DNA of 28,514 nt from a virus (taxonomy: Duplodnaviria; Heunggongvirae; Uroviricota; Caudoviricetes). Of the stretch, positions 3,489 through 27,100 are shown in pieces. The notes under the pieces were generated by a model. The model searched no databases. It had not been told where the DNA came from and saw only the letters and a list, made by a program, of their open reading frames with translations. The stretch lies in IMG/VR virus record IMGVR_UViG_2534682329_000006; one strand, written 5' to 3'. Position numbers and translations under genes: made by a program. Each line of letters opens with the position of its first letter. The stretch's first letter is position 1.

Positions 3489-3534
3489 AGGGAAAGGTTG
3501 CCATCAGGGGAAGAAAGGCGGCAGTGCTGCAACT

Positions 3535-3552
3535 TGTATCAGTGCTGATACA
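3535..3552. promoter_or_regulatory. Candidate late-promoter activator site (Ogr/Delta type, TGT-N12-ACA) upstream of V
   Basis: TGTATCAGTGCTGATACA, a near-perfect inverted repeat fitting the TGT-N12-ACA consensus used by P2-family late activators, in the S-V intergenic region. Confidence 0.45.
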
Positions 3553-3556
3553 AAAA

Positions 3557-4448: not shown

Positions 4449-4680
4449 TAATCATGTCCACTTTGTCTGCACAGACCGCCCAGGCGGCCTCCGTTTCATC
4501 CAACAACGCGTTCAGATCACCGTTAGTGCGTGGCGCTGCCTGATCCAGCCGACACGGTGTCACTCGCGGACAACCACTGACGATAAGCTGCACCTCCGGT
4601 GAGCGTCGGACGTTCCCGCAGCCGGATAATGTCAGCAGGCAAAGGAGTATCAGCCCAGCGGCGTAAATCCTCGTTCTCAC
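4390..4680 (-). CDS. lysC: LysC, Rz1-like outer-membrane lipoprotein (o-spanin), embedded out of frame in lysB and overlapping R
   Basis: 96-aa ORF with a lipoprotein signal and lipobox (LLTLSGC); embedded/overlapping arrangement as in P2 lysB/lysC. Confidence 0.7.
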   Translation of the reverse strand: MRTRIYAAGLILLCLLTLSGCGNVRRSPEVQLIVSGCPRVTPCRLDQAAPRTNGDLNALLDETEAAWAVCADKVDMIIACQERNSEQTTIPAPRPQ

Positions 4681-9506: not shown

Positions 9507-11273
9507 ATGAACACCACACTGACATCCGCAGATCTCGATCCCCGTCGGCAGGCCATGCTGCTGTACTTTCAGGGATACCGCGTAGCCCGCATTGCTGAAA
9601 TGCTGGGCGAGAAAGTTGCAACCGTTCACAGCTGGAAGAAACGCGACAAGTGGGGTGACTATGGGCCGCTGGATCAGATGCAGCTCACCACCGCCGCACG
9701 TTACTGCCAGCTCATTATGAAGGAGCACAAAGAAGGGAAAGATTTCAAAGAAATTGACCTGCTGGCGCGCCAGTCGGAGCGCCACGCGCGGATCGGCAAG
9801 TTTAACAATGGCGGCAACGAAGCCGACTTAAACCCTAACGTCGCCAACCGCAACAAAGGCCCGCGCCGTCAGCCGGAAAAGAATGTTTTCACCGATGAAC
9901 AGATAGATAAACTGGAAGAAATCTTCCATTCCTCCATGTTCAACTACCAGCGCCACTGGTGGGAAGCCGGAAAAACCAACCGCATCCGCAACCTGCTGAA
10001 GTCACGCCAGATCGGCGCGACCTTTTACTTTGCCCGTGAAGCCCTGATTGACGCCCTGCTTACCGGACGTAACCAGATTTTCCTTTCTGCCAGTAAGGCA
10101 CAGGCTCACGTCTTTAAGCAGTACATCATCGACTTCGCCAAAGAAGTCGAGGTGGAGCTGAAAGGCGATCCGATGGTGCTTCCTAACGGGGCCACGCTTT
10201 ACTTCCTCGGCACCAATGCCCGCACGGCGCAGAGTTACCACGGCAACCTGTATCTGGATGAATATTTCTGGATACCGAAATTCCAGGAGTTGCGCAAAGT
10301 GGCTTCCGGTATGGCTATTCACAAGAAATGGCGACAAACCTATTTTTCCACGCCATCCAGCCTGACCCACAGTGCTTATCCGTTCTGGTCCGGTGCGCTG
10401 TTCAACCGTGGACGCAACAAAGCTGACAAGGTGGACATCGACCTGTCCCACAGCAATCTGGCCCCCGGCCTACTGTGCGCAGACGGGCAATACCGCCAGA
10501 TAGTCACCGTGGAAGATGCGGTGCGCGGCGGCTGTAACCTGTTCGACCTCGACCAGCTGCGCATGGAGTACAGCCCGGACGAATACCAGAACCTGCTGAT
10601 GTGCGAGTTCGTGGACGATCTCGCGTCCGTGTTCCCGCTCAGCGAACTGCAGGCGTGCATGGTGGACAGCTGGGAAGTCTGGACCGACTTTCATGCACTG
10701 GCCCTGCGCCCGTTTGGCTGGCGCGAAGTGTGGATCGGTTATGACCCGGCAAAAGGTACGCAGAACGGCGACAGTGCCGGATGCGTGGTGGTGGCTCCGC
10801 CAGCCGTGCCGGGTGGTAAGTTCCGCATTCTTGAGCGTCACCAGTGGCGCGGGATGGACTTCCGCGCCCAGGCTGACGCCATCAAAAAACTGACCGAACA
10901 GTATAACGTGACCTATATCGGTATCGACTCGACCGGCGTCGGTCACGGGGTTTACGAGAACGTGAAAGCGTTTTTTCCTGCCGTCAGGGAGTTTGTCTAC
11001 AACCCCAACGTTAAAAACGCCCTGGTACTCAAGGCCTACGACATTATCAGCCACCGCCGTCTGGAGTTTGACGCCGGGCACACCGACATTGCGCAGTCAT
11101 TTATGGCAATCCGTCGCGCTACCACTGCCAGTGGCAACCGCCCGACCTATGAAGCAAGCCGCAGCGAAGAAGCCAGCCATGCCGATCTGGCCTGGGCAAC
11201 AATGCACGCACTGTTTAACGAACCGCTGCAGGGCGAGTCCGCCAATACCAGCAATATTGTGGAGATTTTTTGA
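9507..11273 (+). CDS. P: Terminase ATPase/large subunit gpP
   Basis: 588-aa ORF (P2 gpP 590 aa); divergent from O and followed by Q as in P2. Confidence 0.9.
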   Translation: MNTTLTSADLDPRRQAMLLYFQGYRVARIAEMLGEKVATVHSWKKRDKWGDYGPLDQMQLTTAARYCQLIMKEHKEGKDFKEIDLLARQSERHARIGKFNNGGNEADLNPNVANRNKGPRRQPEKNVFTDEQIDKLEEIFHSSMFNYQRHWWEAGKTNRIRNLLKSRQIGATFYFAREALIDALLTGRNQIFLSASKAQAHVFKQYIIDFAKEVEVELKGDPMVLPNGATLYFLGTNARTAQSYHGNLYLDEYFWIPKFQELRKVASGMAIHKKWRQTYFSTPSSLTHSAYPFWSGALFNRGRNKADKVDIDLSHSNLAPGLLCADGQYRQIVTVEDAVRGGCNLFDLDQLRMEYSPDEYQNLLMCEFVDDLASVFPLSELQACMVDSWEVWTDFHALALRPFGWREVWIGYDPAKGTQNGDSAGCVVVAPPAVPGGKFRILERHQWRGMDFRAQADAIKKLTEQYNVTYIGIDSTGVGHGVYENVKAFFPAVREFVYNPNVKNALVLKAYDIISHRRLEFDAGHTDIAQSFMAIRRATTASGNRPTYEASRSEEASHADLAWATMHALFNEPLQGESANTSNIVEIF

Positions 11274-12310
11274 TGGGAAAGAGTAAAAAAAAATGCGCTG
11301 CGGCGACGAACCAGATCCAGCATAAAAGCCAAGCTTCAGCCGAAGCATTCAGCTTCGGTGATCCCATTCCAGTACTTGACCGCCGCGAACTGCTGGACTA
11401 TGTGGAATGCGTACAGACAGATCGCTGGTATGAACCTCCCGTCAGCTTTGACGGACTGGCGCGCACCTTCCGCGCTGCCGTGCATCACAGTTCACCAATT
11501 GCAGTGAAATGCAACATTCTGACCAGCACCTACATCCCTCACCCGCTGCTCAGCCAGCAGGCTTTTTCGCGTTTTGTGCAGGACTATCTGGTTTTTGGTA
11601 ACGCCTACCTGGAGAAACGCACGAACCGCTTCGGTGAAGTTATCGCCCTTGAGCCTGCACTGGCAAAATACACCCGACGCGGGTTAGACCTGGATACCTA
11701 CTGGTTTGTGCAATACGGTATGACAACCCAGCCGTATCAGTTCACGAAAGGCAGCATTTTTCATCTGATGGAACCGGACATTAACCAGGAGATCTACGGC
11801 CTGCCCGGTTATCTTTCTGCCATTCCGTCAGCTCTGCTCAACGAGTCCGCCACGCTGTTCCGCCGCAAGTATTACATTAACGGCAGTCATGCAGGCTTCA
11901 TCATGTACATGACCGATGCTGCGCAGAACCAGGAGGATGTGAACAACCTCCGCAATGCGATGAAAAGCGCCAAAGGTCCTGGTAACTTCCGTAACCTGTT
12001 TATGTACTCGCCTAACGGTAAAAAGGACGGGCTTCAGATTATCCCGTTGTCAGAAGTGGCGGCGAAGGATGAGTTCCTGAATATCAAGAACGTGAGCCGG
12101 GACGACATGATGGCGGCGCATCGTGTGCCGCCACAAATGATGGGGATAATGCCTAATAATGTCGGGGGGTTTGGGGATGTGGAGAAGGCTAGTCGAGTGT
12201 TTGTCCGCAATGAACTGATGCCACTGCAAAAGCGGCTGCAAGAGCTGAACAACTGGCTAGGTGAAAAAGTGATTTGTTTTGAATCTTACAACTTAGATAT
12301 TTCTGAGTAA
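11270..12310 (+). CDS. Q: Portal protein gpQ
   Basis: 346-aa ORF (P2 gpQ 344 aa); start overlaps the P stop; last gene before the cos region. Confidence 0.88.
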   Translation: MMGKSKKKCAAATNQIQHKSQASAEAFSFGDPIPVLDRRELLDYVECVQTDRWYEPPVSFDGLARTFRAAVHHSSPIAVKCNILTSTYIPHPLLSQQAFSRFVQDYLVFGNAYLEKRTNRFGEVIALEPALAKYTRRGLDLDTYWFVQYGMTTQPYQFTKGSIFHLMEPDINQEIYGLPGYLSAIPSALLNESATLFRRKYYINGSHAGFIMYMTDAAQNQEDVNNLRNAMKSAKGPGNFRNLFMYSPNGKKDGLQIIPLSEVAAKDEFLNIKNVSRDDMMAAHRVPPQMMGIMPNNVGGFGDVEKASRVFVRNELMPLQKRLQELNNWLGEKVICFESYNLDISE

Positions 12311-12314
12311 ATTA

Positions 12315-12350
12315 AAGCGCCTGCATTTGCAGGCATTCTATTATTCTTTA
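12315..12350. terminator. Bidirectional rho-independent terminator between convergent Q and the 98-aa ORF
   Basis: Hairpin GCCTGC-ATTT-GCAGGC (12319..12334) flanked by T-rich sequence on both strands, directly after the Q stop codon. Confidence 0.55.
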
Positions 12351-12637
12351 ATTAGTGCCCCCCATACGGAGTCCATATCAACTTCCTCAACTACAATGCA
12401 AATGGAGCAATGAACATGACCATCAGCAATGCGTAGGTAATTGAAAAGCCTTGTTTTCACCCGCCCATCAAATTGAGCACGCCCACCCTTATTCGTAATT
12501 GTTACGTAGTCTCCCACATTTGGAAGCATCAAAAGCGAGTTGTCTTCTGAATTACACCCTACAACCTCTCCATCATCATCAGGGCGATCCTGACCTTTGC
12601 GCATATATTGAAAATCATAGCTATAAGTAGTTTTCAT
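12341..12637 (-). CDS. Hypothetical small protein (98 aa) between Q and cos
   Basis: Open reading frame only; no motif recognised; weak Shine-Dalgarno; AT-rich relative to flanking core genes. Confidence 0.35.
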   Translation of the reverse strand: MKTTYSYDFQYMRKGQDRPDDDGEVVGCNSEDNSLLMLPNVGDYVTITNKGGRAQFDGRVKTRLFNYLRIADGHVHCSICIVVEEVDMDSVWGALIKE

Positions 12638-12842
12638 AAATGTCTTACTATTCCAATTTTTAACTAACCCAGAAGTTATATCTTAGACCTAAACTGTCTC
12701 AGTCACCGTTAACTTCATCACAACGATTTAACACATCCTGCATGCCTATCTAACGTGAGAGCCGTTTATACCTACAAAACTAACTACGTTCCTGAGCCAG
12801 TAAATTGCGGTGGATTTTGACCATTTTACCCCAGAGTGCGCG

Positions 12843-12861
12843 CTCGTATCCCCGCCACGCC
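12843..12861 (-). other. Candidate cos site (cohesive-end sequence)
   Basis: Minus strand reads GGCGTGGCGGGGATACGAG; the first 13 nt fit the P2/186 cohesive-end sequence as I remember it (GGCG[A/T]GGCGGGGA…); lies where cos is expected, between Q and the accessory/A region. Confidence 0.45.
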
Positions 12862-12902
12862 TGCCCGCTTTATGTAGCAGTTTTCATGCGCCTGCATGAC
12901 AT

Positions 12903-12930
12903 AAGCAAAAGCCCGCCATTCCTGGCGGGC
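12903..12930 (-). terminator. Rho-independent terminator of the accessory operon (minus strand)
   Basis: 8-bp GC-rich stem GCCCGCCA/TGGCGGGC with a 4-nt loop (12911..12930), followed on the minus strand by TTTTGCTTAT; about 100 nt downstream of the HIRAN gene stop. Confidence 0.6.
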
Positions 12931-13031
12931 CTCAGCTAAAACGATCATCAAACGATCATGCGGATTTATGCGGCATAGACATGCACTAAATCAAGAGCAC
13001 CTTATTACCGGCAAGCATGAATAAACATGCT

Positions 13032-13736
13032 TCACCGAACGGATACTTTTGCATAAATCAAAGGCCTATCCGAAGAGCCATTTTTACGTACGACCACTCC
13101 ACTGACATCATGGTTTTTACTTAGATCACGTAATGCGGCGCACAATGCCTTGTTGACATATCCGAGATGATTGTCGTTTTTCGTAACCAATATGGCCAGC
13201 GGATCAACCGTATTGGTATCTTCATTCCGCAATATGACTTCATCACCAATTGATATCTCATCAAGCGCTAGACGCCCTTCCTTGATCATGTGCCTCGTTC
13301 CAGCGACCTCCATGACGTAATCGAAAGGTGGCCGAACAGAAGACAAGTCTGGGACAAAATAAAAACCATCACTAGCAACTTTTCCGCCAGTACATGCGAG
13401 CAAAACGAAGTCATTCTCTCTAAAATCAGCAGGAAGACGAAACGTCAGCAAGTAATCGTCAAAATCTTCTCTTTTCCTGGAGGGTAACCTTCTTGAAAAG
13501 GTTTGCATAACGTCTTTGCGATGAGTCGCAACTTTTATATCAAAAGCAGGAAAACCGCGAAAGCCGTTATCCCTAGCTTTAGCAAAATCTTTGCTATCAG
13601 TAAGATAATTAAACTCGTAGCCTTCAGACTCATCTTGAAGAAGCTCACCAACGACATAGCGAGAGCCTCCGTCAACCGGTTGCCATGTCAGTAAGAGCCT
13701 ACTGGGCATGGGAATGTTTTCTATTAAGATAGTCAT
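13032..13736 (-). CDS. HIRAN-domain protein (unknown N-terminal domain plus C-terminal HIRAN-like domain)
   Basis: C-terminal segment (…GDEVILRNEDTNTVDPLAILVTKNDNHLGYVNKALCAALRDL…) fits the HIRAN pattern (L.RE..N..D.NAI.V....LGY…A..L); start overlaps the kinase stop (ATGA coupling). Confidence 0.6.
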   Translation of the reverse strand: MTILIENIPMPSRLLLTWQPVDGGSRYVVGELLQDESEGYEFNYLTDSKDFAKARDNGFRGFPAFDIKVATHRKDVMQTFSRRLPSRKREDFDDYLLTFRLPADFRENDFVLLACTGGKVASDGFYFVPDLSSVRPPFDYVMEVAGTRHMIKEGRLALDEISIGDEVILRNEDTNTVDPLAILVTKNDNHLGYVNKALCAALRDLSKNHDVSGVVVRKNGSSDRPLIYAKVSVR

Positions 13737-14644
13737 GAAGTAACACCTTTAATCAGTTCAATACGCATGTTTGTTACACGAACAATCCATGCAGCACGTT
13801 CTCTAGTCAGCGGAACAGGGCAGTTTATTTCCGTCAACTCCGCAAAAGTTGACTCCCAAAAATCATGGTTCAAAAGAGCCAGTTTTTCAGCTACCCGCTG
13901 TTTTAATGCTTCTTTTTTATCACAAAGTTCTTTGATGAACTCTAAATGACCTAATCTCTGATACTCATCTTTGCCCAGAGTCTTACGCAAATGATGCCTT
14001 CCCCGGCCAACATGCTCCCTGAGTCTATGATCGGTCCAATCGGCAACATGCTCCGGAAAGCGTTCGTAACATAAGCTCGTACCATTATCGAAAAATGGTG
14101 CAAGCTGACACTCGCTGGCTAAAGGTGAAAAGACAAACCCCCAATTTTCTTGATGTCTATCTGTATTACCTATCACAGCGTCAAAGAGAGCCATGTCCTC
14201 CAACCACTCAACATAGTCAACTTTAAGAGCTTTCGCGATAATCCTCAGCCCTTCAAGGGAATGCTGAGCTCCTTTCTCGCGATCAAAATTTGGATCTCTT
14301 CGGACAAAGTAATCACCAGCGGGAGCAAATTTCTCATAATCTTTATGATGAAACCACTCAATGAGGGCCCCGCAAAACGTATGCCCCAAATCATTAGTCT
14401 TTACCGATGGAACTGCTTTGGGGACATCAAAACCAAGCTTCAATCCAATCCTGTAGGCAACGATCTCACACCAAAATTGATCTGGATACTTTTTAATACT
14501 TCTCTTAAAAAGATACGGCCACGATGCTTTGATACCATGGGGTGCTACATCAGGGGAAATAACCAATGCCTTAGAGCGAGCACCAACAGGATATTGTGCG
14601 AAAACATCTAGCTCAGTCCAATTGGTTACATCTAAGCAATCCAT
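13733..14644 (-). CDS. HipA-family serine/threonine kinase, short form (303 aa, lacks the HipA N-terminal subdomain)
   Basis: Catalytic-loop motif FDAVIGNTDRHQENWGF matches the HipA/CtkA signature (…IGNTD.H..N…); about 300 aa versus about 440 for E. coli HipA. Confidence 0.7.
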   Translation of the reverse strand: MDCLDVTNWTELDVFAQYPVGARSKALVISPDVAPHGIKASWPYLFKRSIKKYPDQFWCEIVAYRIGLKLGFDVPKAVPSVKTNDLGHTFCGALIEWFHHKDYEKFAPAGDYFVRRDPNFDREKGAQHSLEGLRIIAKALKVDYVEWLEDMALFDAVIGNTDRHQENWGFVFSPLASECQLAPFFDNGTSLCYERFPEHVADWTDHRLREHVGRGRHHLRKTLGKDEYQRLGHLEFIKELCDKKEALKQRVAEKLALLNHDFWESTFAELTEINCPVPLTRERAAWIVRVTNMRIELIKGVTS

Positions 14645-14659
14645 AGCTAAGTCCTATAT

Positions 14660-15220
14660 TTATTTTTTATTTAAATTCATATAGATATGAGAAACCAGTG
14701 CGATCTGAAATAAAACATCATCGAATGCTGTGTGCCTGATGCCAGTGAACTTTTTGTCAGCATGAGAAAAAATTCCTTTGCTTTCACCAAGCGCTAAGAT
14801 GGTTCTGACGTCAAGAGTATCTCTGAATGACCATGGGCACTCCAGACCTGCCTGTGACAGGGCATGATGCATGATAGTGCAGTCGAACTCTTTCCCGTTT
14901 CCCCACACTTTTACTCGGCCATTACGATTATGAAGAACAAACGCCACAAATTCATTCAGAACGTCTAAAAGGTCCTTAGTGCCACCAAAATTTTCGTTTT
15001 TAGCTTCAGAACTTTGATACATCCACCACTTTACAGTGGAGGGGGCAATGGTTCTGCCTGCTTGTTCATGATCAAGCGAAATAACTTGATAGAAACCCGG
15101 ACCAACCTCGCCAGTCTCCGGCACGAAGAAAGCCGCACCAACCGAAAGGATATAAGCCGTTTTTTCAACATCCAATGTTTCTATATCTAACATTACATGA
15201 TTCATAACAAGCATTTGCAA
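14660..15220 (-). CDS. DEDDh-type (DnaQ-like) 3'-5' exonuclease
   Basis: Exo I motif MLDIETLD near the N-terminus and Exo III motif HTAFDD near the C-terminus; about 185 aa. The track start is TTG; in-frame ATGs follow at 15214, 15205 and 15193. Confidence 0.7.
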   Translation of the reverse strand: MQMLVMNHVMLDIETLDVEKTAYILSVGAAFFVPETGEVGPGFYQVISLDHEQAGRTIAPSTVKWWMYQSSEAKNENFGGTKDLLDVLNEFVAFVLHNRNGRVKVWGNGKEFDCTIMHHALSQAGLECPWSFRDTLDVRTILALGESKGIFSHADKKFTGIRHTAFDDVLFQIALVSHIYMNLNKK

Positions 15221-15361
15221 CCATTTAGTAAAAATTGAACGCCATTACCACATTAGGGTATGGCAGGTTCGTTTGTGAACGAAAACGAGTGTTCTGATTG
15301 TAACCCAAGTTAAAAGTTCAAGCGTCGTAACTTTCACTCGGTTGTTTTCAGCTTTGAAAAA

Positions 15362-15550
15362 CTAACCAGGAAGATCCATTGAGCGGTTGTATTCATGAGC
15401 GCGAATCTTCGCCATAAGCTCATCGGTCAACTCCGAAACCCACTGGATAGCCAGCCGCTTTTCTTCGTCGTTACACTCACTAGCCGCTACAAGCTTAATA
15501 AAAAAATCAATGCGCTGGAGCTTCAACGACTCCAAAAGATAGTCCTGCAT
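15362..15550 (-). CDS. Small hypothetical protein (about 62 aa) downstream of the LexA box; possible SOS-induced regulator (Tum-like antirepressor is a guess)
   Basis: In-frame ATG at 15550 is preceded by a strong Shine-Dalgarno (GGAGGG); the longer track ORF (to 15667) would run through the LexA box and promoter. No sequence motif recognised. Confidence 0.4.
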   Translation of the reverse strand: MQDYLLESLKLQRIDFFIKLVAASECNDEEKRLAIQWVSELTDELMAKIRAHEYNRSMDLPG

Positions 15551-15599
15551 CTTCCCTCCTATCACGACCACGGACACACGATAGCTGTATGCATGCATA

Positions 15600-15615
15600 C
15601 TGTATATATATACAG
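15600..15615. promoter_or_regulatory. LexA operator (SOS box)
   Basis: CTGTATATATATACAG is a perfect match to the LexA consensus CTGT-N8-ACAG with an ideal AT-rich spacer; lies about 50 nt upstream of the small ORF and inside a promoter-like AT-rich region (TTGACG on the minus strand upstream). Confidence 0.75.
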
Positions 15616-15712
15616 TACACCCCTGGTATTCAAATGTAAAATATTTTTTATCCGTCAATGAGAACACTCTGGCGCAGAGTCGTTAAGAGCATGAATTGTT
15701 AAAGCCTTGCTG

Positions 15713-18106
15713 TCAGTACCACTGCCGCCATTTGTCATCTTCCTGCAGCCGGTGTTTGCGGTAAAAAATACGCAGCCCGGCACCTGACGGAATGCTGCCG
15801 CCACGTAAAAGTAGATCCACTTCAGCATCGCTTGCATTAAATCCCCGGGAGCTGAGTTCTGCCTCAAGCTGCAGGCGCTGTTGCTCCGAAATACTCTGTA
15901 TGTATGCTTTTTTCCGCTTCGGTTTTACCAGTCTCAACCTGGCTGTCAGCTCCCGGCGTTCCTTCTGGCCCATATTGTGTAGGTAATCCTGCAGTTCCTG
16001 CTCATTCATGGTTTTAATATCGGGCAGCTCCCCCCCTGTCTGGTTCAAATTTTCAACAGGGGGACAGTTATTGCCACGAGTCCAAGGGGCGCAAGCGCCC
16101 TGGTCGGCTGCCGCCTCCTGAACGTCAACGGCTTTACGAACCATTTTCCACTTCACTGCATGAGTGCAGATCTTGCCCTCTGCAATGGGTGACCAGATGC
16201 CATAAATACGAATGCCGTGATCGCCATAGGCGGTCGGCTCTTCGTTGATTTCATAAGCGGTTCTGATGAGGTGATATTTACGGGGTACCAGTACGCCGCC
16301 CTGCTTCATGATGTAGGTGGCAAAACAACCAGCATCAGCAGCAGCCAGAATGGCATCAAGACGCGGGTTATCCAGTACCGGCGCACCTGCTTTTTTGTCA
16401 CCCTGTTGCCTTGCCGCCTGACCAGCCAGCAAGCGAAGTTCACGGTAAGCCTGACGCCCCGGAATACCAAAGAAGCGGAATTGCTGAACACGATGCAGAG
16501 ACGCCCAGGCATTCACGTATTCAGCGTTATCACGCAGAGATTTACCCGTTTCCTTGCTGATCTCGCCAGCCAGACCACGACCGTCAATGTTCTTACTGAT
16601 ATATTTCGCGATGTAGCTTGTCGGCGTTCCTTTGCGCGGGTTAATCAACTCAGACTTAAAGCGCGGCCCAGTGTTATTGCCCAGCTCCTCGCGGTCTTCA
16701 CGGATGGCAAACTTACGCAGTAATGCAGTGATGGCACGGCGGTCTTTTTTGCGCATGAAACACAACAGGTGCCAGTGAACTGTGCCATCATGATGCGGCT
16801 CAGCCACCCGCACGCCATACCAGCGCAACCCGGCTTTGTGCATCGCCTTACGAAATGCAGCAAACATGCCGACCAGATAATCGCTGCTTTGTCTTACCGT
16901 CGCGTTTGTCCAGGTCGGGTTTGGTCTGCCGTTATTTAGCGTGGAATGGAAACGCGACGGACAGGTGATAGTGTAGAAAACGGCGCAGTCACCGCGCATT
17001 TCCGCGATAAGCTCCAGACCTTTAACACAGGCCATCATCTCATTGCGGCGATGCGCAGGGTTGCTGCTGCTGGCGTTTACCACATCCTCCATGTCCAGCG
17101 TGTCGCCGTCTTCGTTCACCAGTTCATGAGAACGGAAAAACTCCAGCGACTTACGGCGCTGCTCACGTTTATGCATCACGGCTTCATAGCTGACATAAGG
17201 AGATGCTTTTTTGCTGACCAGGCAAACAGCGCGCAACTGCTCTTCCCGCCATTCGCAACGCATCTTCCATAATTTCCGATACCACCAGTCGGCGCACAAC
17301 ATACGCGCCAGCGAACCCGGAATGAGTTCATAGGGCACGGGTTTACGGCGGTTTCTTTTCCGACGGAGTTGCTCAAACGCAGGTGGGATGACATCCAGAC
17401 GCAGGGTTTCCGCTGCCACCTTTTCCCATGTCTTGCGGATTTCTTCTGGCTTAACGTCATCGGTGGCATACAAATCACCACAAGCTGCATCAAGGCACAT
17501 ACTCATATGCGCAGCTACCAGGGTGGACAGGCGTTTCACCTGATCCTGACTCATTTCAGGCAGGATCAGCAGGCCGTCCAGCCCTTCATGGCTTGCCATA
17601 AAGCGAAAAGATGCAGATAGCTGACTGTCGCGTACATGCTCCAGTCGTTCCAGACATGGCTTAATCGTCTCACGTAAATAGCGGGAATAAGCCTTTGGCC
17701 TGCCCAGGCTGCTGAAGTATTTAATACGTTGCATCAGCGGCTTGCTGATATGGGAAGGCTGAGCGTTGACATCCGCCAGAATGACCATGTCCGGATTAAA
17801 ACGCTGCTGCTCATGCGCCAGCTTTGCCCGGCTAATTAGCTTATCCTGCTCCATTTCGCGCTGGACAGGATCACGGGATTCATTAAAGAAATAACGCTCC
17901 CAGACCTGATCACTCAGTGCCTCGCGGCGCAGTTGTTCCTGCTCGTTATCGGCAGCGTACAGAGTGATCAGGTTTGAAAGCGCAGAAACCGGCGCAACTT
18001 CCGCCGGGTCCAGATAAGGGTTAATGGCCTTTTTCGGGCTGTTCCATGAGAATGCTGCGGCAGCCTCGTTAAAGCCGCAGCAGTTGTTCATATCGGCATG
18101 ACTCAT
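15713..18106 (-). CDS. A: Replication initiation protein gpA (rolling-circle HUH endonuclease)
   Basis: 797-aa ORF (P2 gpA 761 aa) with the HUH motif (…[10 protein letters not shown]…); start overlaps the dam stop. Confidence 0.88.
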
Positions 18107-20247: not shown

Positions 20248-20757
20248 TCACAGCAAACCGAATGAAGCACCGAGGCCAGTCACAGTATCAACTGCACTCG
20301 CCATCGCAGGGTTAGCCTGTAAACGGGCCTGCAATGAAACAGCCGCCAGCGCCATCAGTCGTGTTACAGAATTAATGCTGCTGATGGCATCACGACGACC
20401 GGCACTGGTTTTTACATCGCCAGATACCGCACCTGCAGCAACACGCCCGATCTCTGCGGTTGCACTCATGACGTAATGCGGCAGTTTCTCTTTTGCTACC
20501 TCATTAATCGGTACACATGGCAGGCAGTGAATCTGTGCCAGAAAACCATCTATCAGCGTTGAATCTTCAGTCAGATCGGTAAGCAGCCAGATTTCTGGCG
20601 CATTGAGCTGATGCGGTTGATCTGGGTTGAGTTTGTTTCGCAGAGTCTGGACATTCATTCCTGCACGTTCTGCCAGCTTCGCCATATTGTGACGAAGTGC
20701 AAAAGCTCTACAGGCTTCATCAAAATGCGGGTGTTTGGAAATCTTATAATCAAACAT
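20248..20757 (-). CDS. cII: CII-like transcriptional activator (phage 186 CII type)
   Basis: 169-aa protein with N-terminal HTH (…NMAKLAERAGMNVQTLRNKLNP…), same length as 186 CII, directly downstream of apl. Confidence 0.7.
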   Translation of the reverse strand: MFDYKISKHPHFDEACRAFALRHNMAKLAERAGMNVQTLRNKLNPDQPHQLNAPEIWLLTDLTEDSTLIDGFLAQIHCLPCVPINEVAKEKLPHYVMSATAEIGRVAAGAVSGDVKTSAGRRDAISSINSVTRLMALAAVSLQARLQANPAMASAVDTVTGLGASFGLL

Positions 20758-21151: not shown

Positions 21152-21784
21152 ATGATACATGTAAAGGTTGGAGAGAATACAGGGGGAAGAGAGGCTATCC
21201 ATAGACTAATGGCAGCCTATGATTTCAAGTCCAGACAGCAACTTTGCGATCACTTAGGCGCATCAAAAAGCACCATGGCAAACAGATACTTAAGAGATAG
21301 TTTTCCTGCAGAGTGGGTGATTCAGTGCGCCTTGGAAACAGGAGTTTCTTTACTGTGGCTAACCACCGGACAGGGGGAGCCAGGTTCAAACATTGAACCC
21401 CAAAAAAATATCAATTCCGTGAACTCCAGCAAGGTTATACCTCTTTCTGAACTAGTATCTCCTGAAATTGACAAGGCGACTCTCAACGGTGGTTTATTGA
21501 TCGATGCTGGAAAAGCAATCATTGATAGCAGCATACTCCCCTCAGACTCAAGCAACCTACTGCTGGTGACTACTTCTGGTGATTCTTATTTAATAGATCG
21601 CAACCAAACACCACCAGTAAATGGTATGTGGTTAGTCGATATCGACGGGATAAAAAGCATTGTTAAATTGACTCGACTCCCGGGAAACAAATTAGTAGTA
21701 CATCAGGATGATTCATCGTTTGAGTGTGGCCTAGATGACATTGAGGTAGTAGGCCGCGCACTGAAAATCATTAAGAGCCTTTGA
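21152..21784 (+). CDS. cI: CI immunity repressor (phage 186 type)
   Basis: N-terminal region (…YDFKSRQQLCDHLGASKSTMANRYLR…CALETGVSLLWLTTGQGE…) follows the 186 CI pattern; AGGA Shine-Dalgarno; immediately upstream of int. Confidence 0.75.
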   Translation: MIHVKVGENTGGREAIHRLMAAYDFKSRQQLCDHLGASKSTMANRYLRDSFPAEWVIQCALETGVSLLWLTTGQGEPGSNIEPQKNINSVNSSKVIPLSELVSPEIDKATLNGGLLIDAGKAIIDSSILPSDSSNLLLVTTSGDSYLIDRNQTPPVNGMWLVDIDGIKSIVKLTRLPGNKLVVHQDDSSFECGLDDIEVVGRALKIIKSL

Positions 21785-21785
21785 T

Positions 21786-22802
21786 ATGACCATCAGAAAA
21801 CAGCCGAACGGAAAATGGTTGTGTGAGTGCTATCCCAATGGACGCAATGGTAAGCGCGTGCGTAAGCAATTTGCTACGAAAGGCGAAGCCATTGCTTTTG
21901 AAAGCTTCACAATGGAAGAAGTGAATAAAAAACCGTGGTTGGGTGAAAAGGATGATCGGCGACGCCTATCAGAATTAATTGAGCTTTGGTATTCCCTGTA
22001 TGGTCAGACACTCGCAGACCCCAAGCGCCTCATGGCGAAACTTAGAATTATCTGTAATGGTCTAGGCGACCCCATCGCCTCAGAACTGACAGCCGGTGAC
22101 TTTACGAAATACCGCGAAGCACGGTTAAAAGGTGACGTTCGTAACGAAGACGGCACACTAATGTCGCCAGTAAAACCACGCACGGTGAATCTTGAGCAAC
22201 GTAACCTATCATCGGTTTTCGGCACATTGAAAAAACTAGGCCACTGGTCAGCACCAAATCCTCTCGCCGGGCTGCCAACATTTAAAATCGCTGAGGGGGA
22301 ACTGGCGTTCCTGACCTCGGAAGAAATTAAACGTCTGCTAGATGCCTGCGCTGATTCTCAAAACCCCAGTCTGCTTTTGATTGCAAAAATATGCCTGGCC
22401 ACCGGCGCACGCTGGAGTGAAGCCGAAAACCTGCAGGGCCATCAGTTATCTAAATACCGCATCACTTATACCAAGACGAAGGGTAAGAAAAACCGCACCG
22501 TGCCGATATCTCAAGATCTGTATGACGAACTCCCCAAGAACAGAGGGAAGCTATTCACCCCGTGCAGAAAAGCCTTTGAACGAGCAGTAAAGCGAGCTGG
22601 CATCGAGCTGCCAGAGGGCCAATGCACTCACGTGCTACGTCATACATTCGCCAGCCATTTTATGATGAATGGCGGAAACATACTGGTGCTACGCGATATT
22701 CTGGGCCATGCCGATATAAAAATGACGATGATCTATTCTCATTTTTCACCAGAACACTTAGAAGATGCAGTAACTAAGAATCCTTTAAATTATATTGAGT
22801 GA
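21786..22802 (+). CDS. int: Tyrosine integrase (P2-type site-specific recombinase)
   Basis: 338-aa protein with the catalytic H-x-x-R box (HVLRHTFASH) and C-terminal tyrosine region (IKMTMIYSHF); last core phage gene before att. Confidence 0.88.
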   Translation: MTIRKQPNGKWLCECYPNGRNGKRVRKQFATKGEAIAFESFTMEEVNKKPWLGEKDDRRRLSELIELWYSLYGQTLADPKRLMAKLRIICNGLGDPIASELTAGDFTKYREARLKGDVRNEDGTLMSPVKPRTVNLEQRNLSSVFGTLKKLGHWSAPNPLAGLPTFKIAEGELAFLTSEEIKRLLDACADSQNPSLLLIAKICLATGARWSEAENLQGHQLSKYRITYTKTKGKKNRTVPISQDLYDELPKNRGKLFTPCRKAFERAVKRAGIELPEGQCTHVLRHTFASHFMMNGGNILVLRDILGHADIKMTMIYSHFSPEHLEDAVTKNPLNYIE

Positions 22803-23869
22803 AAATCATGTTAAGTGATACTTGTTATACAGTGATTTATATTACAGCAATCGTTTTATTAGTATTTATTACAATAGTAAAAAAATGGTACATACTTGAT
22901 AAAAGAAATTTATTTCGTCAGAAATTATTTTGGATTTCAGTTTTAACACCTTTATTTTCCTTTATCTATTTTGTTTTTTTCACATGGTGGGGAAAAGAAC
23001 CAGTACTCTCCGCACATGGCTATTCAAGATTTTACGAAATAAGCAAATTCCCTCTACTATTGCTAGCTAGTGCAGTTCCTTTGGCTTCGATCGTCAACAA
23101 TATACATCGCACTATACAAACCGAAGCTCAGATCAACACCGCTGAAACGAAAAATGCAGTCGATAGATATTTAGCACATGAGAAAAACTTTATTGAGAAA
23201 ACAAAGGAAATATTCGCCTACAATCTTCAAAGCGCGAGAGGCTCAGATGGAAACCTCATTAAATTCAATGGCGAACCAAATATCACTTTGTTTACAGCAG
23301 ATGAAATTAAAATTTCCAACCCATATCTTTTATATACAAAAATATACAACAAATCAACTATAGAGACCACATCTAACTTCACCGCAAACCCTGATTTTTT
23401 AGTGCAATTAAAGGAGTACTTAAACACAATTAATAATACTCTGTCGGTTCAACACTCTATAGATGAATATAATCCATTAAGTTACATGATTCGACTTAAC
23501 ACTTTGTCATATAATACAGCCTCGTTATTAGACCTGATATGTACATCCCCCATATCTCATGTATACTGTTTGATAAAATATGATGGGTATCAATTAAAAA
23601 CATTTACACTTGAAGAACAAGTATTCGCCGATATTTTAGAAATATCATATCTTCTATCAAGAAAACTAATTCGTTTGATATATAATGAAGATATACCACA
23701 TTACGACAACATTTATAATTACTTATATGTTGGTAAGTTGAGGTTTAAATTCAGAAAACACGCCTATTCTTTACAAGCATTTTCTTCGCAGGAATGGGCT
23801 GATTACGTTTCTGAAGCACTAACTCTAGTTCCTAACGAAGTTGGCGGCACTTTGGCGGCAGCGCATTAA
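22799..23869 (+). CDS. Hypothetical membrane protein, AT-rich cargo gene between int and att
   Basis: About 355-aa ORF with two N-terminal TM helices then an N/Y/I/K-rich domain with no recognised motif; visibly AT-rich; start (GTG at 22799 or ATG at 22808) overlaps or abuts the int stop. Confidence 0.55.
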   Translation: MKIMLSDTCYTVIYITAIVLLVFITIVKKWYILDKRNLFRQKLFWISVLTPLFSFIYFVFFTWWGKEPVLSAHGYSRFYEISKFPLLLLASAVPLASIVNNIHRTIQTEAQINTAETKNAVDRYLAHEKNFIEKTKEIFAYNLQSARGSDGNLIKFNGEPNITLFTADEIKISNPYLLYTKIYNKSTIETTSNFTANPDFLVQLKEYLNTINNTLSVQHSIDEYNPLSYMIRLNTLSYNTASLLDLICTSPISHVYCLIKYDGYQLKTFTLEEQVFADILEISYLLSRKLIRLIYNEDIPHYDNIYNYLYVGKLRFKFRKHAYSLQAFSSQEWADYVSEALTLVPNEVGGTLAAAH

Positions 23870-23955
23870 AAATTAGTAAAATGGACAAACACTACATAAC
23901 AATAACGCACTGTTTTTAAATGCAAACTACTGTTTTTGCTATAGTAAAAATGGTA

Positions 23956-23992
23956 TGTAGGAATTTCGGACGCGGGTTCAACTCCCGCCAGC
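23956..23992 (+). other. att core: fragment matching the 3' end of ssrA (tmRNA), marking the prophage/chromosome junction
   Basis: TGTAGGAATTTCGGACGCGGGTTCAACTCCCGCCAGC matches the 3'-terminal T-arm/acceptor region of E. coli tmRNA as I remember it, but the upstream 300+ nt of ssrA and the final TCCACCA are absent, so it is a partial copy, not the gene. Confidence 0.6.
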
Positions 23993-24122
23993 CCAATCAT
24001 GATTGGACGGTGTAAGGACAACACCAACAAAAACAGGAAGTTAGAAGTCTCAGCAAAACACCGACCAGACGGTGAGGAGACATAAAAGGATACGCAAAGG
24101 AGCCGCGGCTCCTGGTAACATG

Positions 24123-24146
24123 AAAGCCCACAGATGTGGGCTTTTT
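24123..24146 (+). terminator. Rho-independent terminator (plus-strand T-tract; may also act on the convergent autotransporter gene)
   Basis: Hairpin GCCCACA-GA-TGTGGGC followed by TTTTT, about 10 nt beyond the autotransporter stop. Confidence 0.6.
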
Positions 24147-24155
24147 CGTTGATGG

Positions 24156-27100
24156 TCAGAACGACCAGTTCACACCAGCTACCGCGTTCCACGGGGATTC
24201 CACACCGGCACTATGGCTATACCCCACCCCAAGATGCCCGCTTAACGTACTGCTGAATGAGGCTTTAATACCTGCCTGGTATATTCCACGTCTGCCCGAC
24301 AAATAATTGACGAAATTACCGTCACTATTCACTTTCACCCGGTTATCATCGACAAATTCTTTGCGCACAGCCGGCTCAACTTCCATACCGTTCCCCAGAC
24401 GCATGTTGTAACTCAGCGTTGCGCCCAGTTCACGATATATACTGCGGGTATCGACTGATTTCGATTTCATGCCATTGGATAAATGATATTCGGGGTTATC
24501 AGCGGTGAACCCCGTTAACGATGCATACGGCGTCAGGTTCCAGTTACCATCGGTAAATCGCATCCCGGTTTCAATGTGACCGCCCAGCCCGTTGCTGTGG
24601 TAACTGCCATTGGCGGCTCCACCGCTGCTCATTTTACCTGCTACGTTACTTTTAAAACGGTTCAGCTTCACGACACCGTCCAGATAGAAACCACTTTCAT
24701 GTTCCCAACTGGCATAGCCGCCCAGAGAATAACTGCCCACACTGCCATGTCCTCCGCGATCAAAACCGATATGTGAATGGGAATAGCCCATAAAAGCGCC
24801 TAGCGTGGTAATTCCTTCAGGAATATCATTACGGCTGTCGATCCCCACTGTCATTCCGGTCAGCGTCTGCTCAAACCCGGCACCCGCATCGGTGGTGACA
24901 TTATTACGGGTGTTATACGTCGCCCCCCAGACATTATTGTTGTGTGGACTCGCTTTCATTATGTTCAACCGCTCGCGAATACTGTTTAGCTCAGCATCAA
25001 ATACCAACGGTAATGTTGCTGCCATATTGAGTACGGCTGCCGTAGAAGGCGTAATGCGTTTCTCCGGAACGGGTGTCGGCGTTGGATCGGGAGTAGGGTC
25101 TGGTTTTGGATTTGGGTCTGGCTTTGGATCGGGTTTTGGGTCTGGCTTTGGATTTGGGATGGGGTCCGGGTTGGGTTTGACATCATTGGTCAGGTTCCAG
25201 TTGCTGTTGCCGTCACTTTTCAGGACATACTCATAGGTCCCAAGATCAACGAAACCGCCGGTATTGCCCAGCGTAAACGAAGCATCCCCTCCCCCTGTTT
25301 TCACCAGCGTCATCGCGTCGTCAGACTGTGGGCTGACGCCGGTATCCTGAACAAAGATTTTAAAATTACCAGTGGCGTTGTTGTTGACGACCAGTTGATC
25401 GCCCCGGGAGCCTGCAACGTTGGTATGCAGGTAGAAATTACCGCTACCGGAAAGTTCATTGGTTGTCAGCGTATTGTAGATACCGTTAGTTGTGGCAGGC
25501 GCTGCTGTTTGTGCTGACAAATAAACATCACCGTCGTTGAGTAGCAAACTGTTTACTCTATATTCGCAGTTGCTGGTACCTGCACAGGAATTATTGCTGT
25601 TAAGCCAGACACTGCCCCGGCTGGCAGCCGTCAGGTCGGCAAGCGTGGTATCGACGCCATTTCCCAGAGTCAATGTCGCGCTATCGGTAATCCGGACCGC
25701 CCCTTCGAGTTTAACTGGCGTAACATTATCCCGTGGCGTCATTAACGACAGGCTTCCTGTCGCGCCACTGACCGATGCATCCGCCAGCGTACCTGCGTAG
25801 ACGATTGCCGTACCGCCAGCGACCTGGAGATCTTCTGCCCGGGCCAGAGCCTGAAACTCATCTTTTGACCGCCCAAGGGTATATTGCCCGCCAGAGTTAA
25901 CCTTTGTGGCGGAGTCCTGACCCAGGTTTTGCATTGCCCCACCCTTGCCAACCGTGGAGTCGCGAGCTTCGGTACCTGCTAATACCAATAAATTACCGCC
26001 ATTTTCCAGCAACATATTGGTCGCTAAATTGCCGGAAATGGAAAAAGTACCGTACTGGTGAGTACCGCTGATTTCAATACCGTTAGCCGTGCTCGTCTGG
26101 AGAGCGGCACCGCTGTTCTGGACGATATCTGTCGCTTTGCCATTATCGTTGACTGTCAGCGTACCGCCTTCATTGATCTTTGTTTTTATTGCCTCTCCGT
26201 TAGCTGAAACTGTTTGTATTCCGCCGTCGTTAATTGTTGTCTCATTCGCCACACCCTCGACAATTTGTTCACCGCCGGTGAGCGTCGTGCCTGTCGCAGT
26301 GGCTTTTGTTTTGACGATCTCCCGTCCGCCCATATTGACCTGTGTTTTGTCAGAAGAGGTGTCTGACTCCACGGTTAACACGCCGCCATTTGCCAGCAGG
26401 ATATTGTTCGCCGCACCCTGCTCGATGCTGAACGCGACGCCATCCGCGCGTGTTCCTGTGACCCGCGTCGCCCTGGTGGTTGCAACCAAAGCGCCCTGGC
26501 TACTCTGCTGTATCCCCGTTGCGCTGCCTTTCTCCCGCACATCGAGTGTGCCGCCGTCATTAAGCACCGAGTTTTCAGCCAGACCGCCCTCATTAACTAC
26601 CTGTGAACCCCCATTAATAATGGAATCTTCCGCTGTCCCGTTTGCCATAATTTGTTGTAGGCCAGAGACGATATCGGTATTGATCGCCTTACCATAATTC
26701 TGAACGGTTTGCGTGCCACCATTGATGTGTGTTTTATCTGTTGACCCACCATCAACAATTTGTTCACCACTTTCGATATTTGCCTCAGTGGCTAAACCAT
26801 ATACCGTTTGCTTGCCACCTTTGATATTTGCTTTATCAGAAGTGGCACTGGCATATATTGTTTGGGTGCCAGAACTATTAAGTACAGTGCCAACATCTTT
26901 TCCATAAACATCCATTTTGCCGTTGGCATTAATAATCGTATCAACTGCCCGGGAACCAGTGACGACTGTTAATGAGCCAGCGTTTTCCAGCACTACATTT
27001 TTAGCTTCTGAATTCCTGATGTAGAAAGCATCACCATAACTGTTGGTTCCTTCGATAAGTGTTCCGGAAGTCGTGGAAGCAATTAATGCGCCGCCGGATT

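What the first reader, a model, noticed from the sequence alone, without database searches (positions are those of the whole stretch)
15550..15670. Perfect LexA box in the promoter upstream of the accessory locus, implying SOS control
Seen in sequence: CTGTATATATATACAG at 15600..15615 is a perfect LexA consensus, embedded in an AT-rich promoter-like stretch and overlapped by a second palindrome (TATGCATGCATA). About 50 nt downstream on the minus strand is a well-initiated small ORF (GGAGGG Shine-Dalgarno), then after a 141-nt gap with its own possible -10 (TACAAT) comes the exonuclease-kinase-HIRAN operon. Established knowledge: phage 186 carries a LexA-repressed promoter in the equivalent right-end region that drives the Tum antirepressor for SOS-dependent induction. 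Inference: the small ORF may be a Tum-like inducer, and the downstream cargo may also be expressed on DNA damage or prophage induction.
Basis: partly seen in the sequence, partly recalled or inferred. Interest (0 to 1): 0.68.

Follow-up and report, generated by a model that had tools for sequence, protein, structure and literature searches.

The report
LexA-controlled Tum antirepressor promoter of prophage
This is the DNA-damage switch of a 186/Fels-2-type prophage of E. coli: a perfect LexA site sits on the promoter of a small antirepressor gene (tumA). That circuit is already well known, but here the same promoter probably also feeds a three-gene exonuclease, kinase and HIRAN cargo module.

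Summary
TACTGTATATATATACAGTA (15598-15617) is a 20/20 match to the E. coli LexA consensus and the only LexA-like site in the window.

It overlaps the -10 of a promoter (TTTACA, 17 nt, TACTGT) that aligns with the LexA-repressed p95 promoter of phage 186.

The 62-aa ORF downstream (15550-15362, minus strand) is a TumA antirepressor:
- It matches the same PHROG profiles as the N-terminal half of 186 Tum.
- It is syntenic with PSP3 tumA and Fels-2 STM2728.
- It is 85% identical to the E. coli HS 'tum' gene. Deleting that gene, or using lexA(Ind-), abolishes mitomycin induction.
- A 186-type CI repressor, the target of Tum, is present in the window.

All 31 assessable species-level relatives keep a LexA box at this position.

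The 'second palindrome' fills the slot of a second, overlapping LexA box. Most relatives, and colicin operons, have that box; here it has decayed to 11/20.

The usual DinI-like tumB gene is missing. An exonuclease-HipI kinase-HipN(HIRAN) module follows with no strong terminator until after HipN. In true P2-type phages, which lack tum, the same module carries its own LexA box. SOS control of the cargo is therefore plausible but unproven.

Verdict: a known circuit and a new member of it, with a modestly novel link to the cargo.

The parts
15598..15617 (-). LexA (SOS) box 1, TACTGTATATATATACAGTA, a perfect 20/20 match to the consensus. It overlaps the -10 hexamer.
   Evidence: A box at the same position is found in 31 of 31 assessable species-level relatives and in 186, PSP3, Fels-2, SopEPhi and E. 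coli HS.
15583..15602 (-). Slot of the second, overlapping LexA box (CAGTATGCATGCATACAGCT, 11/20). It contains the 14-nt palindrome GTATGCATGCATAC (15587-15600). The distal half-site ATACAG is kept; the proximal CTG is lost.
   Evidence: Relatives have CAGTGG(A/T)TATAT(A/G)TACAGT here, scoring at least 14/20 in 22 of 31 loci. The same tandem architecture occurs in colicin and cloacin operators.
15635..15640 (-). Putative -35 hexamer TTTACA of the tum promoter
   Evidence: Conserved as TTTACA/TTCACA in the alignment with the 186 p95 -35 (TTCACA).
15612..15617 (-). Putative -10 hexamer TACTGT, 17 nt from the -35. It is the first 6 nt of LexA box 1.
   Evidence: Same hexamer and same overlap as the annotated p95 -10 and LexA site of phage 186.
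15554..15560 (-). Shine-Dalgarno sequence AGGAGGG of tumA
   Evidence: Conserved in relatives.
15362..15550 (-). tumA: a 62-aa antirepressor, homologous to the N-terminal half of 186 Tum
   Evidence: PHROG cross-hits. 85% identical to the experimentally deleted E. coli HS tum. Synteny with PSP3 tumA and Fels-2 STM2728.
15206..15361 (-). Leader between tumA and the exonuclease gene. There is no DinI-like gene and no canonical terminator. One hairpin (15270-15237, -13.3 kcal/mol) followed by AAUUUUU could terminate some transcripts. TTCACA-18-TAATGT is a weak internal promoter candidate.
   Evidence: The hairpin is not conserved in the E. coli N1420 orthologue.
14660..15205 (-). Rv2179c-like 3'-5' exonuclease, first cargo gene. 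The start is ambiguous: 15220, 15214, 15205 or 15193.
   Evidence: Pfam PF16473, 8.5e-51. N-terminus matches that of homologues.
13733..14644 (-). Short HipA-family kinase (HipI-like; PADLOC PDC-M03A)
   Evidence: Pfam HipA_C. PADLOC, 1.6e-34. Architecture as described in PMC8262856.
13032..13736 (-). HIRAN-domain protein (HipN-like putative antitoxin; PADLOC PDC-M03B). Overlaps the kinase gene by 4 nt.
   Evidence: Pfam HIRAN. PADLOC, 5.8e-37.
12903..12930 (-). Strong intrinsic terminator (GCCCGCC-AGGAAT-GGCGGGC, then UUUUGCUU). Probable 3' end of the tumA-cargo transcript.
   Evidence: -20 to -25 kcal/mol, z = -4.7. The same terminator follows the divergent module in L070.
21152..21784 (+). 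186-type CI immunity repressor, the expected target of TumA
   Evidence: Pfam Phage_CI_repr and Phage_CI_C. 44% identical to the E. coli HS prophage CI.
15713..18106 (-). Replication endonuclease gene A, immediately upstream. A small hairpin lies at 15680-15666.
   Evidence: Pfam Phage_GPA..

Best explanation
The site is the operator of the SOS promoter of a 186/Fels-2-type P2-family prophage of E. coli.

In a lysogen, host LexA binds the perfect box that covers the -10 (TACTGT) and the start region of the promoter TTTACA-17-TACTGT, and keeps it shut. DNA damage leads to RecA-stimulated self-cleavage of LexA. The promoter then fires and the 62-aa TumA is made. TumA binds the 186-type CI repressor (21152-21784) and stops it binding its operators, so the prophage switches to lytic growth.

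This lineage has a single, maximal-affinity box. Its relatives have a colicin-like pair of overlapping, weaker boxes; the second box here has decayed into the GTATGCATGCATAC palindrome.

The DinI-like second gene of the operon (tumB) has been lost. The transcript probably continues, at least in part, through a 156-nt leader into the exonuclease-HipI kinase-HipN(HIRAN) module, and ends at the strong terminator at 12930-12903. If so, the cargo is also raised by DNA damage.

Basis of each step:
- Shown by sequence: the box, the promoter homology, TumA homology, the presence of CI, the absence of dinI, and the terminator map.
- Shown experimentally only in relatives (186, E. coli HS, PSP3): LexA control and antirepressor function.
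- Inferred: read-through into the cargo.
For: - Box: 20/20 match, unique in the window, and 0 of 100 shuffles give such a site.
- Promoter: same box-on--10 arrangement as the annotated p95 promoter and LexA site of 186.
- Conservation: a box is kept upstream of tumA in 31 of 31 assessable species-level loci across Enterobacterales while the flanks diverge.
- TumA homology: the window ORF hits PHROG 698 (3e-36), 8554 (4e-9) and 1993 (1e-3). 186 Tum residues 1-61 hit 1993 (1e-22), 8554 (1e-11) and 698 (3e-5).
- Annotation and literature: PSP3 annotates tumA/tumB. PMC3121763 states that tum is split in Fels-2 and PSP3 and that the upstream gene is the antirepressor.
- Genetics in an orthologue: in E. 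coli HS, delta-tum and lexA(Ind-) block MMC induction. The deleted ORF is 53/62 identical to this one and sits behind the same kind of operator.
- Target: a 186-type CI and CII are present.
- Host: the host flank is E. coli ypjA at 99% identity, so the E. coli LexA consensus applies.
- Cargo read-through, terminators: no canonical terminator lies between tumA and hipN, and a strong one follows hipN.
- Cargo read-through, association: all 21 P2-family loci with this module, including versions only about 40% identical, have a LexA box upstream on the same strand.
- Cargo read-through, own box: in P2-type phages without tum, the box (18/20) lies inside the variable segment, 140 nt before the exonuclease gene. 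P2 and L-413C, which carry other cargo, have none.
- Precedent: in 186 the p95 'SOS operon' also reads past a partial terminator into the cargo gene orf97.
Against: - No binding or transcript data exist for this locus.
- Pairwise BLASTP between the ORF and 186 Tum finds nothing. The homology is detectable only at profile level.
- The -10 hexamer TACTGT is weak, and the consensus scanner did not call the promoter.
- For the cargo: a -13.3 kcal/mol hairpin followed by AAUUUUU in the leader (15270-15237) could terminate part of the transcripts.
- Weak internal promoter candidates exist: TTCACA-18-TAATGT, and TACAAT, which is TATAAT in N1420.
- The P2-type leader has a conserved TTGGAA-16-TAGAAT downstream of its LexA box. 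LexA-independent expression of the module is therefore possible.
- The association between the module and LexA boxes is confounded by position, because this hotspot always lies downstream of the tum promoter in inducible P2-family phages.
Confidence: 0.82

Rival explanations
1. The LexA box controls tumA only. The exonuclease-HipI-HipN cargo is a separate unit, expressed constitutively in the lysogen from its own promoter in the leader, like other cargo of this P2 hotspot such as old and tin.
For: - A hairpin followed by AAUUUUU lies in the leader.
- Candidate internal promoters exist: TTCACA-18-TAATGT, and TACAAT (TATAAT in N1420).
- A conserved TTGGAA-16-TAGAAT lies downstream of the box in the P2-type version.
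- A toxin-antitoxin or defence module is expected to be present before an infection (established knowledge; PMC8262856).
Against: - No canonical terminator lies in the leader, and the hairpin is not conserved in the N1420 orthologue.
- No promoter in the gap reaches the scanner's threshold.
- P2-type phages place a LexA box directly in front of the module, inside the variable segment.
- The module always has the same orientation as tum.
Confidence: 0.4
2. The GTATGCATGCATAC palindrome is the operator of a second, unknown repressor that 'double-locks' the tum promoter, rather than a decayed LexA box.
For: - It is a perfect 14-nt palindrome at about +5 to +20 of the predicted transcript.
- The whole lineage with this TumA allele keeps it unchanged.
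- From my own knowledge, not checked here: colicin promoters are known to be co-repressed by a second protein.
Against: - It is unique in the window, so it is not a repeated phage operator.
- A palindrome of this size is expected by chance.
- Its right half, GCATACAG, is inherited from the ancestral second LexA box (compare N1420 and 500465).
- The lineage is nearly clonal, so its invariance says little.
Confidence: 0.08
3. The box is a chance AT-rich palindrome with no regulatory role, and the small ORF is not expressed or is not an antirepressor.
For: CTGT-N8-ACAG alone occurs by chance in 26% of shuffled windows. No Pfam family matches the ORF.
Against: - The 20/20 match was never seen in shuffles.
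- The position is conserved in every relative examined.
- An orthologue has been validated genetically.
- PHROG profiles link the ORF to 186 Tum.
Confidence: 0.02

Closest known systems
Phage 186 p95 promoter and tum (LexA-repressed antirepressor, the 'SOS operon')
   Same: - Same genome position, just after replication gene A at the right end.
- The LexA box covers the -10 hexamer TACTGT (186: TACTGTATGTTTATACAGTA).
- The product's N-terminal domain is homologous at profile level.
- The target is a 186-type CI.
- The operon continues into a cargo gene (orf97) past a partial terminator.
   Different: - 186 Tum is one 146-aa protein with a DinI-like C-terminal half. Here only the 62-aa N-terminal homologue exists and no DinI-like sequence follows.
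- The 186 box lies 20 nt from the start codon; here it is 49 nt away, and there is a slot for a second box.
Split tum operons: PSP3 tumA/tumB, Fels-2 STM2728/DinI, and the E. coli HS P2-like prophage tum
   Same: - A 60-62-aa tumA gene lies behind a LexA operator.
- The ORF is 85-90% identical to the Fels-2, SopEPhi and HS proteins.
- HS tum and cleavable LexA are both required for mitomycin C induction.
   Different: - Those phages have a DinI-like gene 10-12 nt after tumA. Here, and in 13 of 33 species-level loci, it is absent.
- Those operators are tandem (box 1 15-18/20, box 2 14-17/20). Here box 1 is 20/20 and box 2 is 11/20.
Tandem overlapping SOS boxes of colicin and cloacin operons
   Same: - Fels-2-type tum operators (TACTGTAAATATAAACAGTGGTTATATGTACAGTA) are about 90% identical over 42 nt to the operators in front of colicin-like bacteriocin genes on Col plasmids (TACTGTATATAAAACCAGTGGTTATATGTACAGTA).
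- Two overlapping boxes bind two LexA dimers and give very tight repression (PMC2994835).
   Different: In this window the second box has lost its CTG half-site, so the tandem architecture is probably not functional. Repression would rest on one consensus box.
HipIN-type HipA-family kinase modules (Gerdes et al. 2021) / PADLOC candidate PDC-M03
   Same: A short HipA_C kinase is followed by a protein with a C-terminal HIRAN domain. In P2-type phages the two are fused, giving a HipL-like architecture.
   Different: - That work did not describe an upstream Rv2179c-like 3'-5' exonuclease, a P2-hotspot location or a link to LexA boxes (no 'prophage' and no relevant 'exonuclease' hit).
- No function has been tested for this family.
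Gifsy prophage LexA-controlled antirepressors (GfoA, GftA)
   Same: A LexA-repressed operon encodes a small antirepressor together with a DinI homologue (PMC3121763).
   Different: The proteins are unrelated and the gene order is reversed. Those are lambdoid phages.

Membership tests
E. coli LexA (SOS) box | Match to the 20-nt consensus TACTG(TA)5CAGTA, i.e. CTGT-N8-ACAG | tested here: met
   20/20 at 15598-15617.
E. coli LexA (SOS) box | Overlaps a promoter so that bound LexA blocks RNA polymerase | tested here: met
   The box covers the -10 hexamer TACTGT of TTTACA-17-TACTGT, which aligns with the annotated p95 -35, -10 and LexA site of 186. The promoter itself has not been mapped here.
E. 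coli LexA (SOS) box | Conserved at the orthologous position in related genomes | tested here: met
   31 of 31 assessable species-level loci, plus 186, PSP3, Fels-2, SopEPhi, ESSI-2 and E. coli HS.
E. coli LexA (SOS) box | LexA binding and DNA-damage induction demonstrated | not testable with these tools
   Shown only for relatives: 186 and E. coli HS.
Tum/TumA antirepressor of 186-type P2-family phages | Sequence homology to the N-terminal half of 186 Tum and to PSP3 TumA | tested here: met
   Reciprocal PHROG profile hits (698, 8554, 1993). Pairwise BLASTP is negative, so the homology is detectable only at profile level. The ORF is 85-90% identical to the Fels-2, SopEPhi and HS TumA proteins.
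Tum/TumA antirepressor of 186-type P2-family phages | First gene after replication gene A, behind a LexA-controlled promoter | tested here: met
Tum/TumA antirepressor of 186-type P2-family phages | A cognate 186-type CI repressor in the same prophage | tested here: met
   Pfam Phage_CI_repr and Phage_CI_C at 21152-21784; CII at 20248-20757. 44% identical to the HS CI.
Tum/TumA antirepressor of 186-type P2-family phages | Binds CI and prevents operator binding; required for SOS induction | not testable with these tools
   A genetic requirement has been shown for the 85%-identical HS orthologue.
DinI-like TumB (second half of tum) | A DinI-family ORF directly after tumA, or fused to it | tested here: not met
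   tblastn with Fels-2 DinI finds nothing in 12000-16000. The 156-nt leader has no such ORF.
Colicin-type tandem overlapping SOS boxes | A second box sharing one base with the first and keeping TG...CAG (at least about 14/20) | tested here: not met
   The slot at 15583-15602 scores 11/20 and lacks the proximal CTG. Relatives score 14-17/20.
HipIN module / PADLOC PDC-M03 | A short HipA_C kinase followed by a protein with a C-terminal HIRAN domain | tested here: met
   Pfam; PADLOC PDC-M03A 1.6e-34 and PDC-M03B 5.8e-37.
HipIN module / PADLOC PDC-M03 | A HipS-like N-terminal domain in the HIRAN protein | tested here: inconclusive
   Pfam at E <= 0.01 reports only the HIRAN domain, residues 140-220. 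No dedicated comparison was made.
HipIN module / PADLOC PDC-M03 | Kinase toxicity neutralised by the partner; anti-phage activity | not testable with these tools
   Untested in the literature that was found.

The most novel reading that the evidence does not exclude
The exonuclease-HipI kinase-HipN(HIRAN) trio may be a cargo module that is natively under LexA control. Wherever it occurs in P2-family phages it is transcribed from an SOS promoter: it shares the tum promoter in inducible phages and brings its own LexA box in non-inducible P2-type phages. That would make it a HipA-family kinase system triggered by DNA damage or by prophage induction. Its DNA-end-binding HIRAN domain and 3'-5' exonuclease would act during the SOS response. 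It would therefore not be a constitutively expressed defence system.
Probability: 0.4. Interest if true: 0.55.

Novelty: new member of a known kind. Interest (0 to 1): 0.35.

Why it matters
The LexA-Tum circuit tells us that this E. coli prophage should be inducible by DNA-damaging agents, including antibiotics such as quinolones. That matters for phage release and gene transfer, but the circuit itself has been textbook knowledge for phage 186 since the 1990s.

Two side results go a little further.

1. Operator evolution. Fels-2-type tum operators are colicin-type double LexA boxes. This lineage has replaced the pair with one perfect box, which gives a natural experiment on how operator architecture sets the induction threshold.

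2. The cargo. An uncharacterised HipA-family kinase/HIRAN module with an exonuclease is consistently wired to LexA boxes. This gives a concrete, testable condition (the SOS response) under which to look for its function.

Tried and rejected
- Pairwise BLASTP of the ORF against 186 Tum found no alignment. Homology had to be shown with PHROG profiles.
- Pfam and PADLOC have no model for the small ORF.
- An exact search for the window-type operator (31 nt) in one genome per species found nothing, so the variant is strain-level. It is present in many NCBI E. coli assemblies, found through the exact protein.
- An alignment-based locus search failed because the alignment had no sufficiently conserved stretch. 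A single-protein search was used instead.
- TACAAT as a -10 for the cargo is rejected as a standard sigma-70 promoter. The only nearby -35-like hexamer (TTGAAC) is 13 nt away, and no hexamer at 15-19 nt fits.
- I tested whether the window's leader is homologous to the leader of the P2-type module and holds a decayed copy of its LexA box. The local alignment score is no better than shuffles (26/500 and 176/500 reach it), so this is rejected.
- The palindrome as a repeated phage operator is rejected, because it is unique in the window.
- No known RNA family lies in the leader or 5' UTR: Rfam finds nothing in the window.
- The whole leader does not fold better than shuffles (z = -0.99). Only the local hairpin at 15270-15237 stands out.
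- Bunny et al. 2002 (Fels-2 and lexA lethality) could not be read because it is not held. It is cited only through PMC3121763.
- The scrambled operator in E. coli EC101 was not interpreted, because that assembly has frameshifts in neighbouring genes.

Full report
**1. What is in the sequence**

The window is an E. coli prophage of the P2 family, 186/Fels-2 type, lying in reverse orientation.
- Gene content: portal and terminase (9507-12310), replication gene A (15713-18106, minus strand), Dam methylase, CII (20248-20757, minus strand), a 186-type CI (21152-21784, plus strand) and integrase.
- Host: the flank beyond the integrase is E. coli ypjA at 99% identity, so the E. coli LexA consensus applies.
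- Box: CTGTATATATATACAG is at 15600-15615. With its flanks it reads TACTGTATATATATACAGTA (15598-15617), a 20/20 match to the consensus.
- Chance: the loose pattern CTGT-N8-ACAG is not rare (0.33 expected per window). The 20-mer with up to 3 mismatches never appeared in 100 shuffles, and nothing else in the window reaches 14/20.
- Small ORF: on the minus strand the box is followed, 49 nt later, by AGGAGGG, a 3-nt spacer and ATG (15550), opening a 62-aa ORF that ends at 15362.

**2. The promoter**

Phage 186 is annotated with p95 (-35 TTCACA, -10 TACTGT) and a LexA site, TACTGTATGTTTATACAGTA, that begins with the -10 hexamer. The window aligns to this as TTTACA (15640-15635), 17 nt, TACTGT (15617-15612). 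The generic promoter scanner missed it because TACTGT matches TATAAT at only 3 of 6 positions. The assignment therefore rests on homology to p95, not on the strength of the consensus match.

**3. The small ORF is TumA**
- Pairwise BLASTP against 186 Tum finds nothing.
- Profile searches link the two. The ORF hits PHROG 698 (3e-36), 8554 (4e-9) and 1993 (1e-3). Residues 1-61 of 186 Tum hit 1993 (1e-22), 8554 (1e-11) and 698 (3e-5).
- PSP3 annotates the equivalent pair as tumA ('similar to 5' end 186 tum; UV induction of prophage') and tumB (DinI-like).
- In E. coli HS, deleting 'tum' or making LexA non-cleavable abolishes mitomycin C induction of the P2-like prophage (PMC11195241).
- I mapped that paper's deletion primers onto the HS genome. 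They remove exactly the 62-aa ORF at 924619-924807, which is 53/62 identical to the window ORF and sits behind the same kind of operator.
- The window CI is 44% identical to the HS CI.

**4. Conservation, and the 'second palindrome'**

A search of one genome per species returned 33 loci from Citrobacter, Klebsiella, Enterobacter, Pantoea, Serratia, Erwinia and others.
- All 31 assessable loci have a LexA box upstream of tumA (median 17/20, maximum 19/20).
- 22 of the 31 have a second box overlapping the first by one base: TACTGT-N8-ACAGTGG-N8-TACAGT.
- This tandem operator is about 90% identical to the operators of colicin and cloacin genes on Col plasmids (1206 plasmid records; two examples checked). 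Those operators are known to bind two LexA dimers and give very tight repression (PMC2994835).
- In the window the second slot (15583-15602) reads CAGTATGCATGCATACAGCT. It keeps the distal ATACAG but has lost the proximal TG, and scores 11/20.

It is unique in the window and is not statistically unusual. This lineage thus has one perfect box where its relatives have two good ones. Whether the two arrangements are functionally equivalent is not known.

**5. What follows tumA**
- In 20 of 33 species-level loci a DinI-like gene follows within about 12 nt. In 13 loci, and in the window, it is absent.
- Homology to the dinI-carrying relatives stops 13 nt before the tumA stop codon, so the variable hotspot begins there.
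- The cargo is an Rv2179c-like 3'-5' exonuclease, a short HipA_C kinase and a HIRAN protein.
- The last two match the PADLOC candidate PDC-M03A/B and the hipIN architecture of Gerdes et al. (PMC8262856). No functional data were found.
- The exact TumA allele is always linked to this trio in the ten NCBI places shown, except the defective EC101 prophage.

**6. Is the cargo under SOS control?**

Evidence for:
- There is no canonical terminator between tumA and hipN. A strong one (-20 to -25 kcal/mol) lies 100 nt after hipN, at 12930-12903.
- Versions of the trio only about 40% identical occur in other P2-family viral contigs, always on the tum strand and always with a LexA box upstream. The arrangements are tumA-trio, tumA-dinI-trio and 186-like tum-trio. 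In L070 there is no terminator between dinI and the trio, and the same strong terminator follows it.
- In true P2-type phages (Escherichia phage 899 and relatives), which lack tum, a LexA box (18/20) sits 140 nt before the exonuclease gene. Backbone homology to P2 and L-413C ends about 34 nt before that box. P2 and L-413C, with other cargo, have no box.
- Two P2-type lineages only 84% identical keep the box while their flanks differ.
- In 186 the p95 transcript also reads through a partial terminator into the cargo gene orf97.

Evidence against:
- The window leader has a hairpin (15270-15237, -13.3 kcal/mol, z = -3.8) followed by AAUUUUU that could act as a partial terminator. It is not conserved in the 88%-identical N1420 leader.
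- Weak internal promoters cannot be excluded.
- The P2-type leader has a conserved TTGGAA-16-TAGAAT downstream of its box.

I put SOS-responsive cargo expression at roughly even odds.

**7. Comparison with the known, and verdict**

The LexA box, promoter and tumA meet every sequence-testable criterion of the 186/PSP3/Fels-2 SOS-antirepressor circuit. Biochemical criteria are met only through relatives. The locus is not a complete 'tum' in the 186 sense, because the DinI half is absent. Its operator is not a functional colicin-type tandem.

The finding is real and correctly interpreted, but it rediscovers a known circuit, so the interest is low to moderate. The part that could be new is the consistent wiring of the exonuclease-HipI-HipN module to LexA boxes.

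Noticed in passing
L015 (CP159309.1) 2060-3951; equivalent to window 15597/15598: In one genome a group II intron (Rfam RF02005, 187 bits; it encodes a 495-aa reverse transcriptase) is inserted in the sense orientation exactly between LexA box 1 and the palindrome (...ATACAGT|GTGCG...CGCGAC|ATGCATGC...). This is in the predicted 5' UTR of tumA, so the intron would itself be transcribed only during the SOS response.
   Followed up: partly
L009/L020 (E. coli EC101, CP196707.1), operator region: In an otherwise 98.5%-identical prophage the 38-nt operator is heavily altered (TACTGTCTGTGTATTTACGGTATAGTGAGTACCG) while the flanks are identical. Gene A and the exonuclease gene are frameshifted. This is either a decaying prophage or a sequencing artefact at an AT-rich palindrome.
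   Followed up: no
L005 (E. coli N1420) and the four other complete genomes: A 90%-identical copy of the same cargo sits behind a Fels-2-type tandem operator. Its tumA is cut to 56 aa by a TAG codon, and the candidate -10 in its leader reads TATAAT instead of TACAAT.
   Followed up: partly
L064/L081 (Escherichia phage 899, PV533660) 2995-4638: In P2-type phages the kinase and the HIRAN protein are fused into one 547-aa protein (HipL-like architecture), preceded by the exonuclease gene with a strong ribosome-binding site.
   Followed up: partly
window 12903-12940 and L070 4713-4750: The terminator after the HIRAN gene and the bases after it are almost identical in the window and in L070, although the cargo proteins are only about 40% identical. 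Different versions of the module therefore seem to be exchanged between conserved flanks.
   Followed up: no
L021, L022 and 1206 plasmid records: The Fels-2-type tum operator is about 90% identical over 42 nt to the double SOS box in front of colicin- and cloacin-like bacteriocin genes on small Col plasmids. This points to common ancestry or strong convergence of the whole 35-nt operator.
   Followed up: partly
window 12341-12637 (minus strand) and 12318-12335: A further 98-aa cargo ORF (PHROG 12676, function unknown; no Pfam or PADLOC hit) lies between the terminator and the portal gene. It is followed by a two-way hairpin, GCCTGCATTTGCAGGC.
   Followed up: no
window 22799-23869 (plus strand): A 356-aa ORF between the integrase gene and host ypjA has only a sub-threshold DUF3810 hit. 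In most E. coli genomes homology to the ypjA flank starts about 940 nt into the query (query 22900-28514, i.e. about 23842), so this ORF is probably prophage cargo at the att end.
   Followed up: no
window 15237-15270 (minus strand): A local RNA hairpin in the tumA-exonuclease leader (-13.3 kcal/mol, z = -3.8) is followed by AAUUUUU. It could be a partial terminator or attenuator like t95a of phage 186, but it is absent from the N1420 orthologue.
   Followed up: partly
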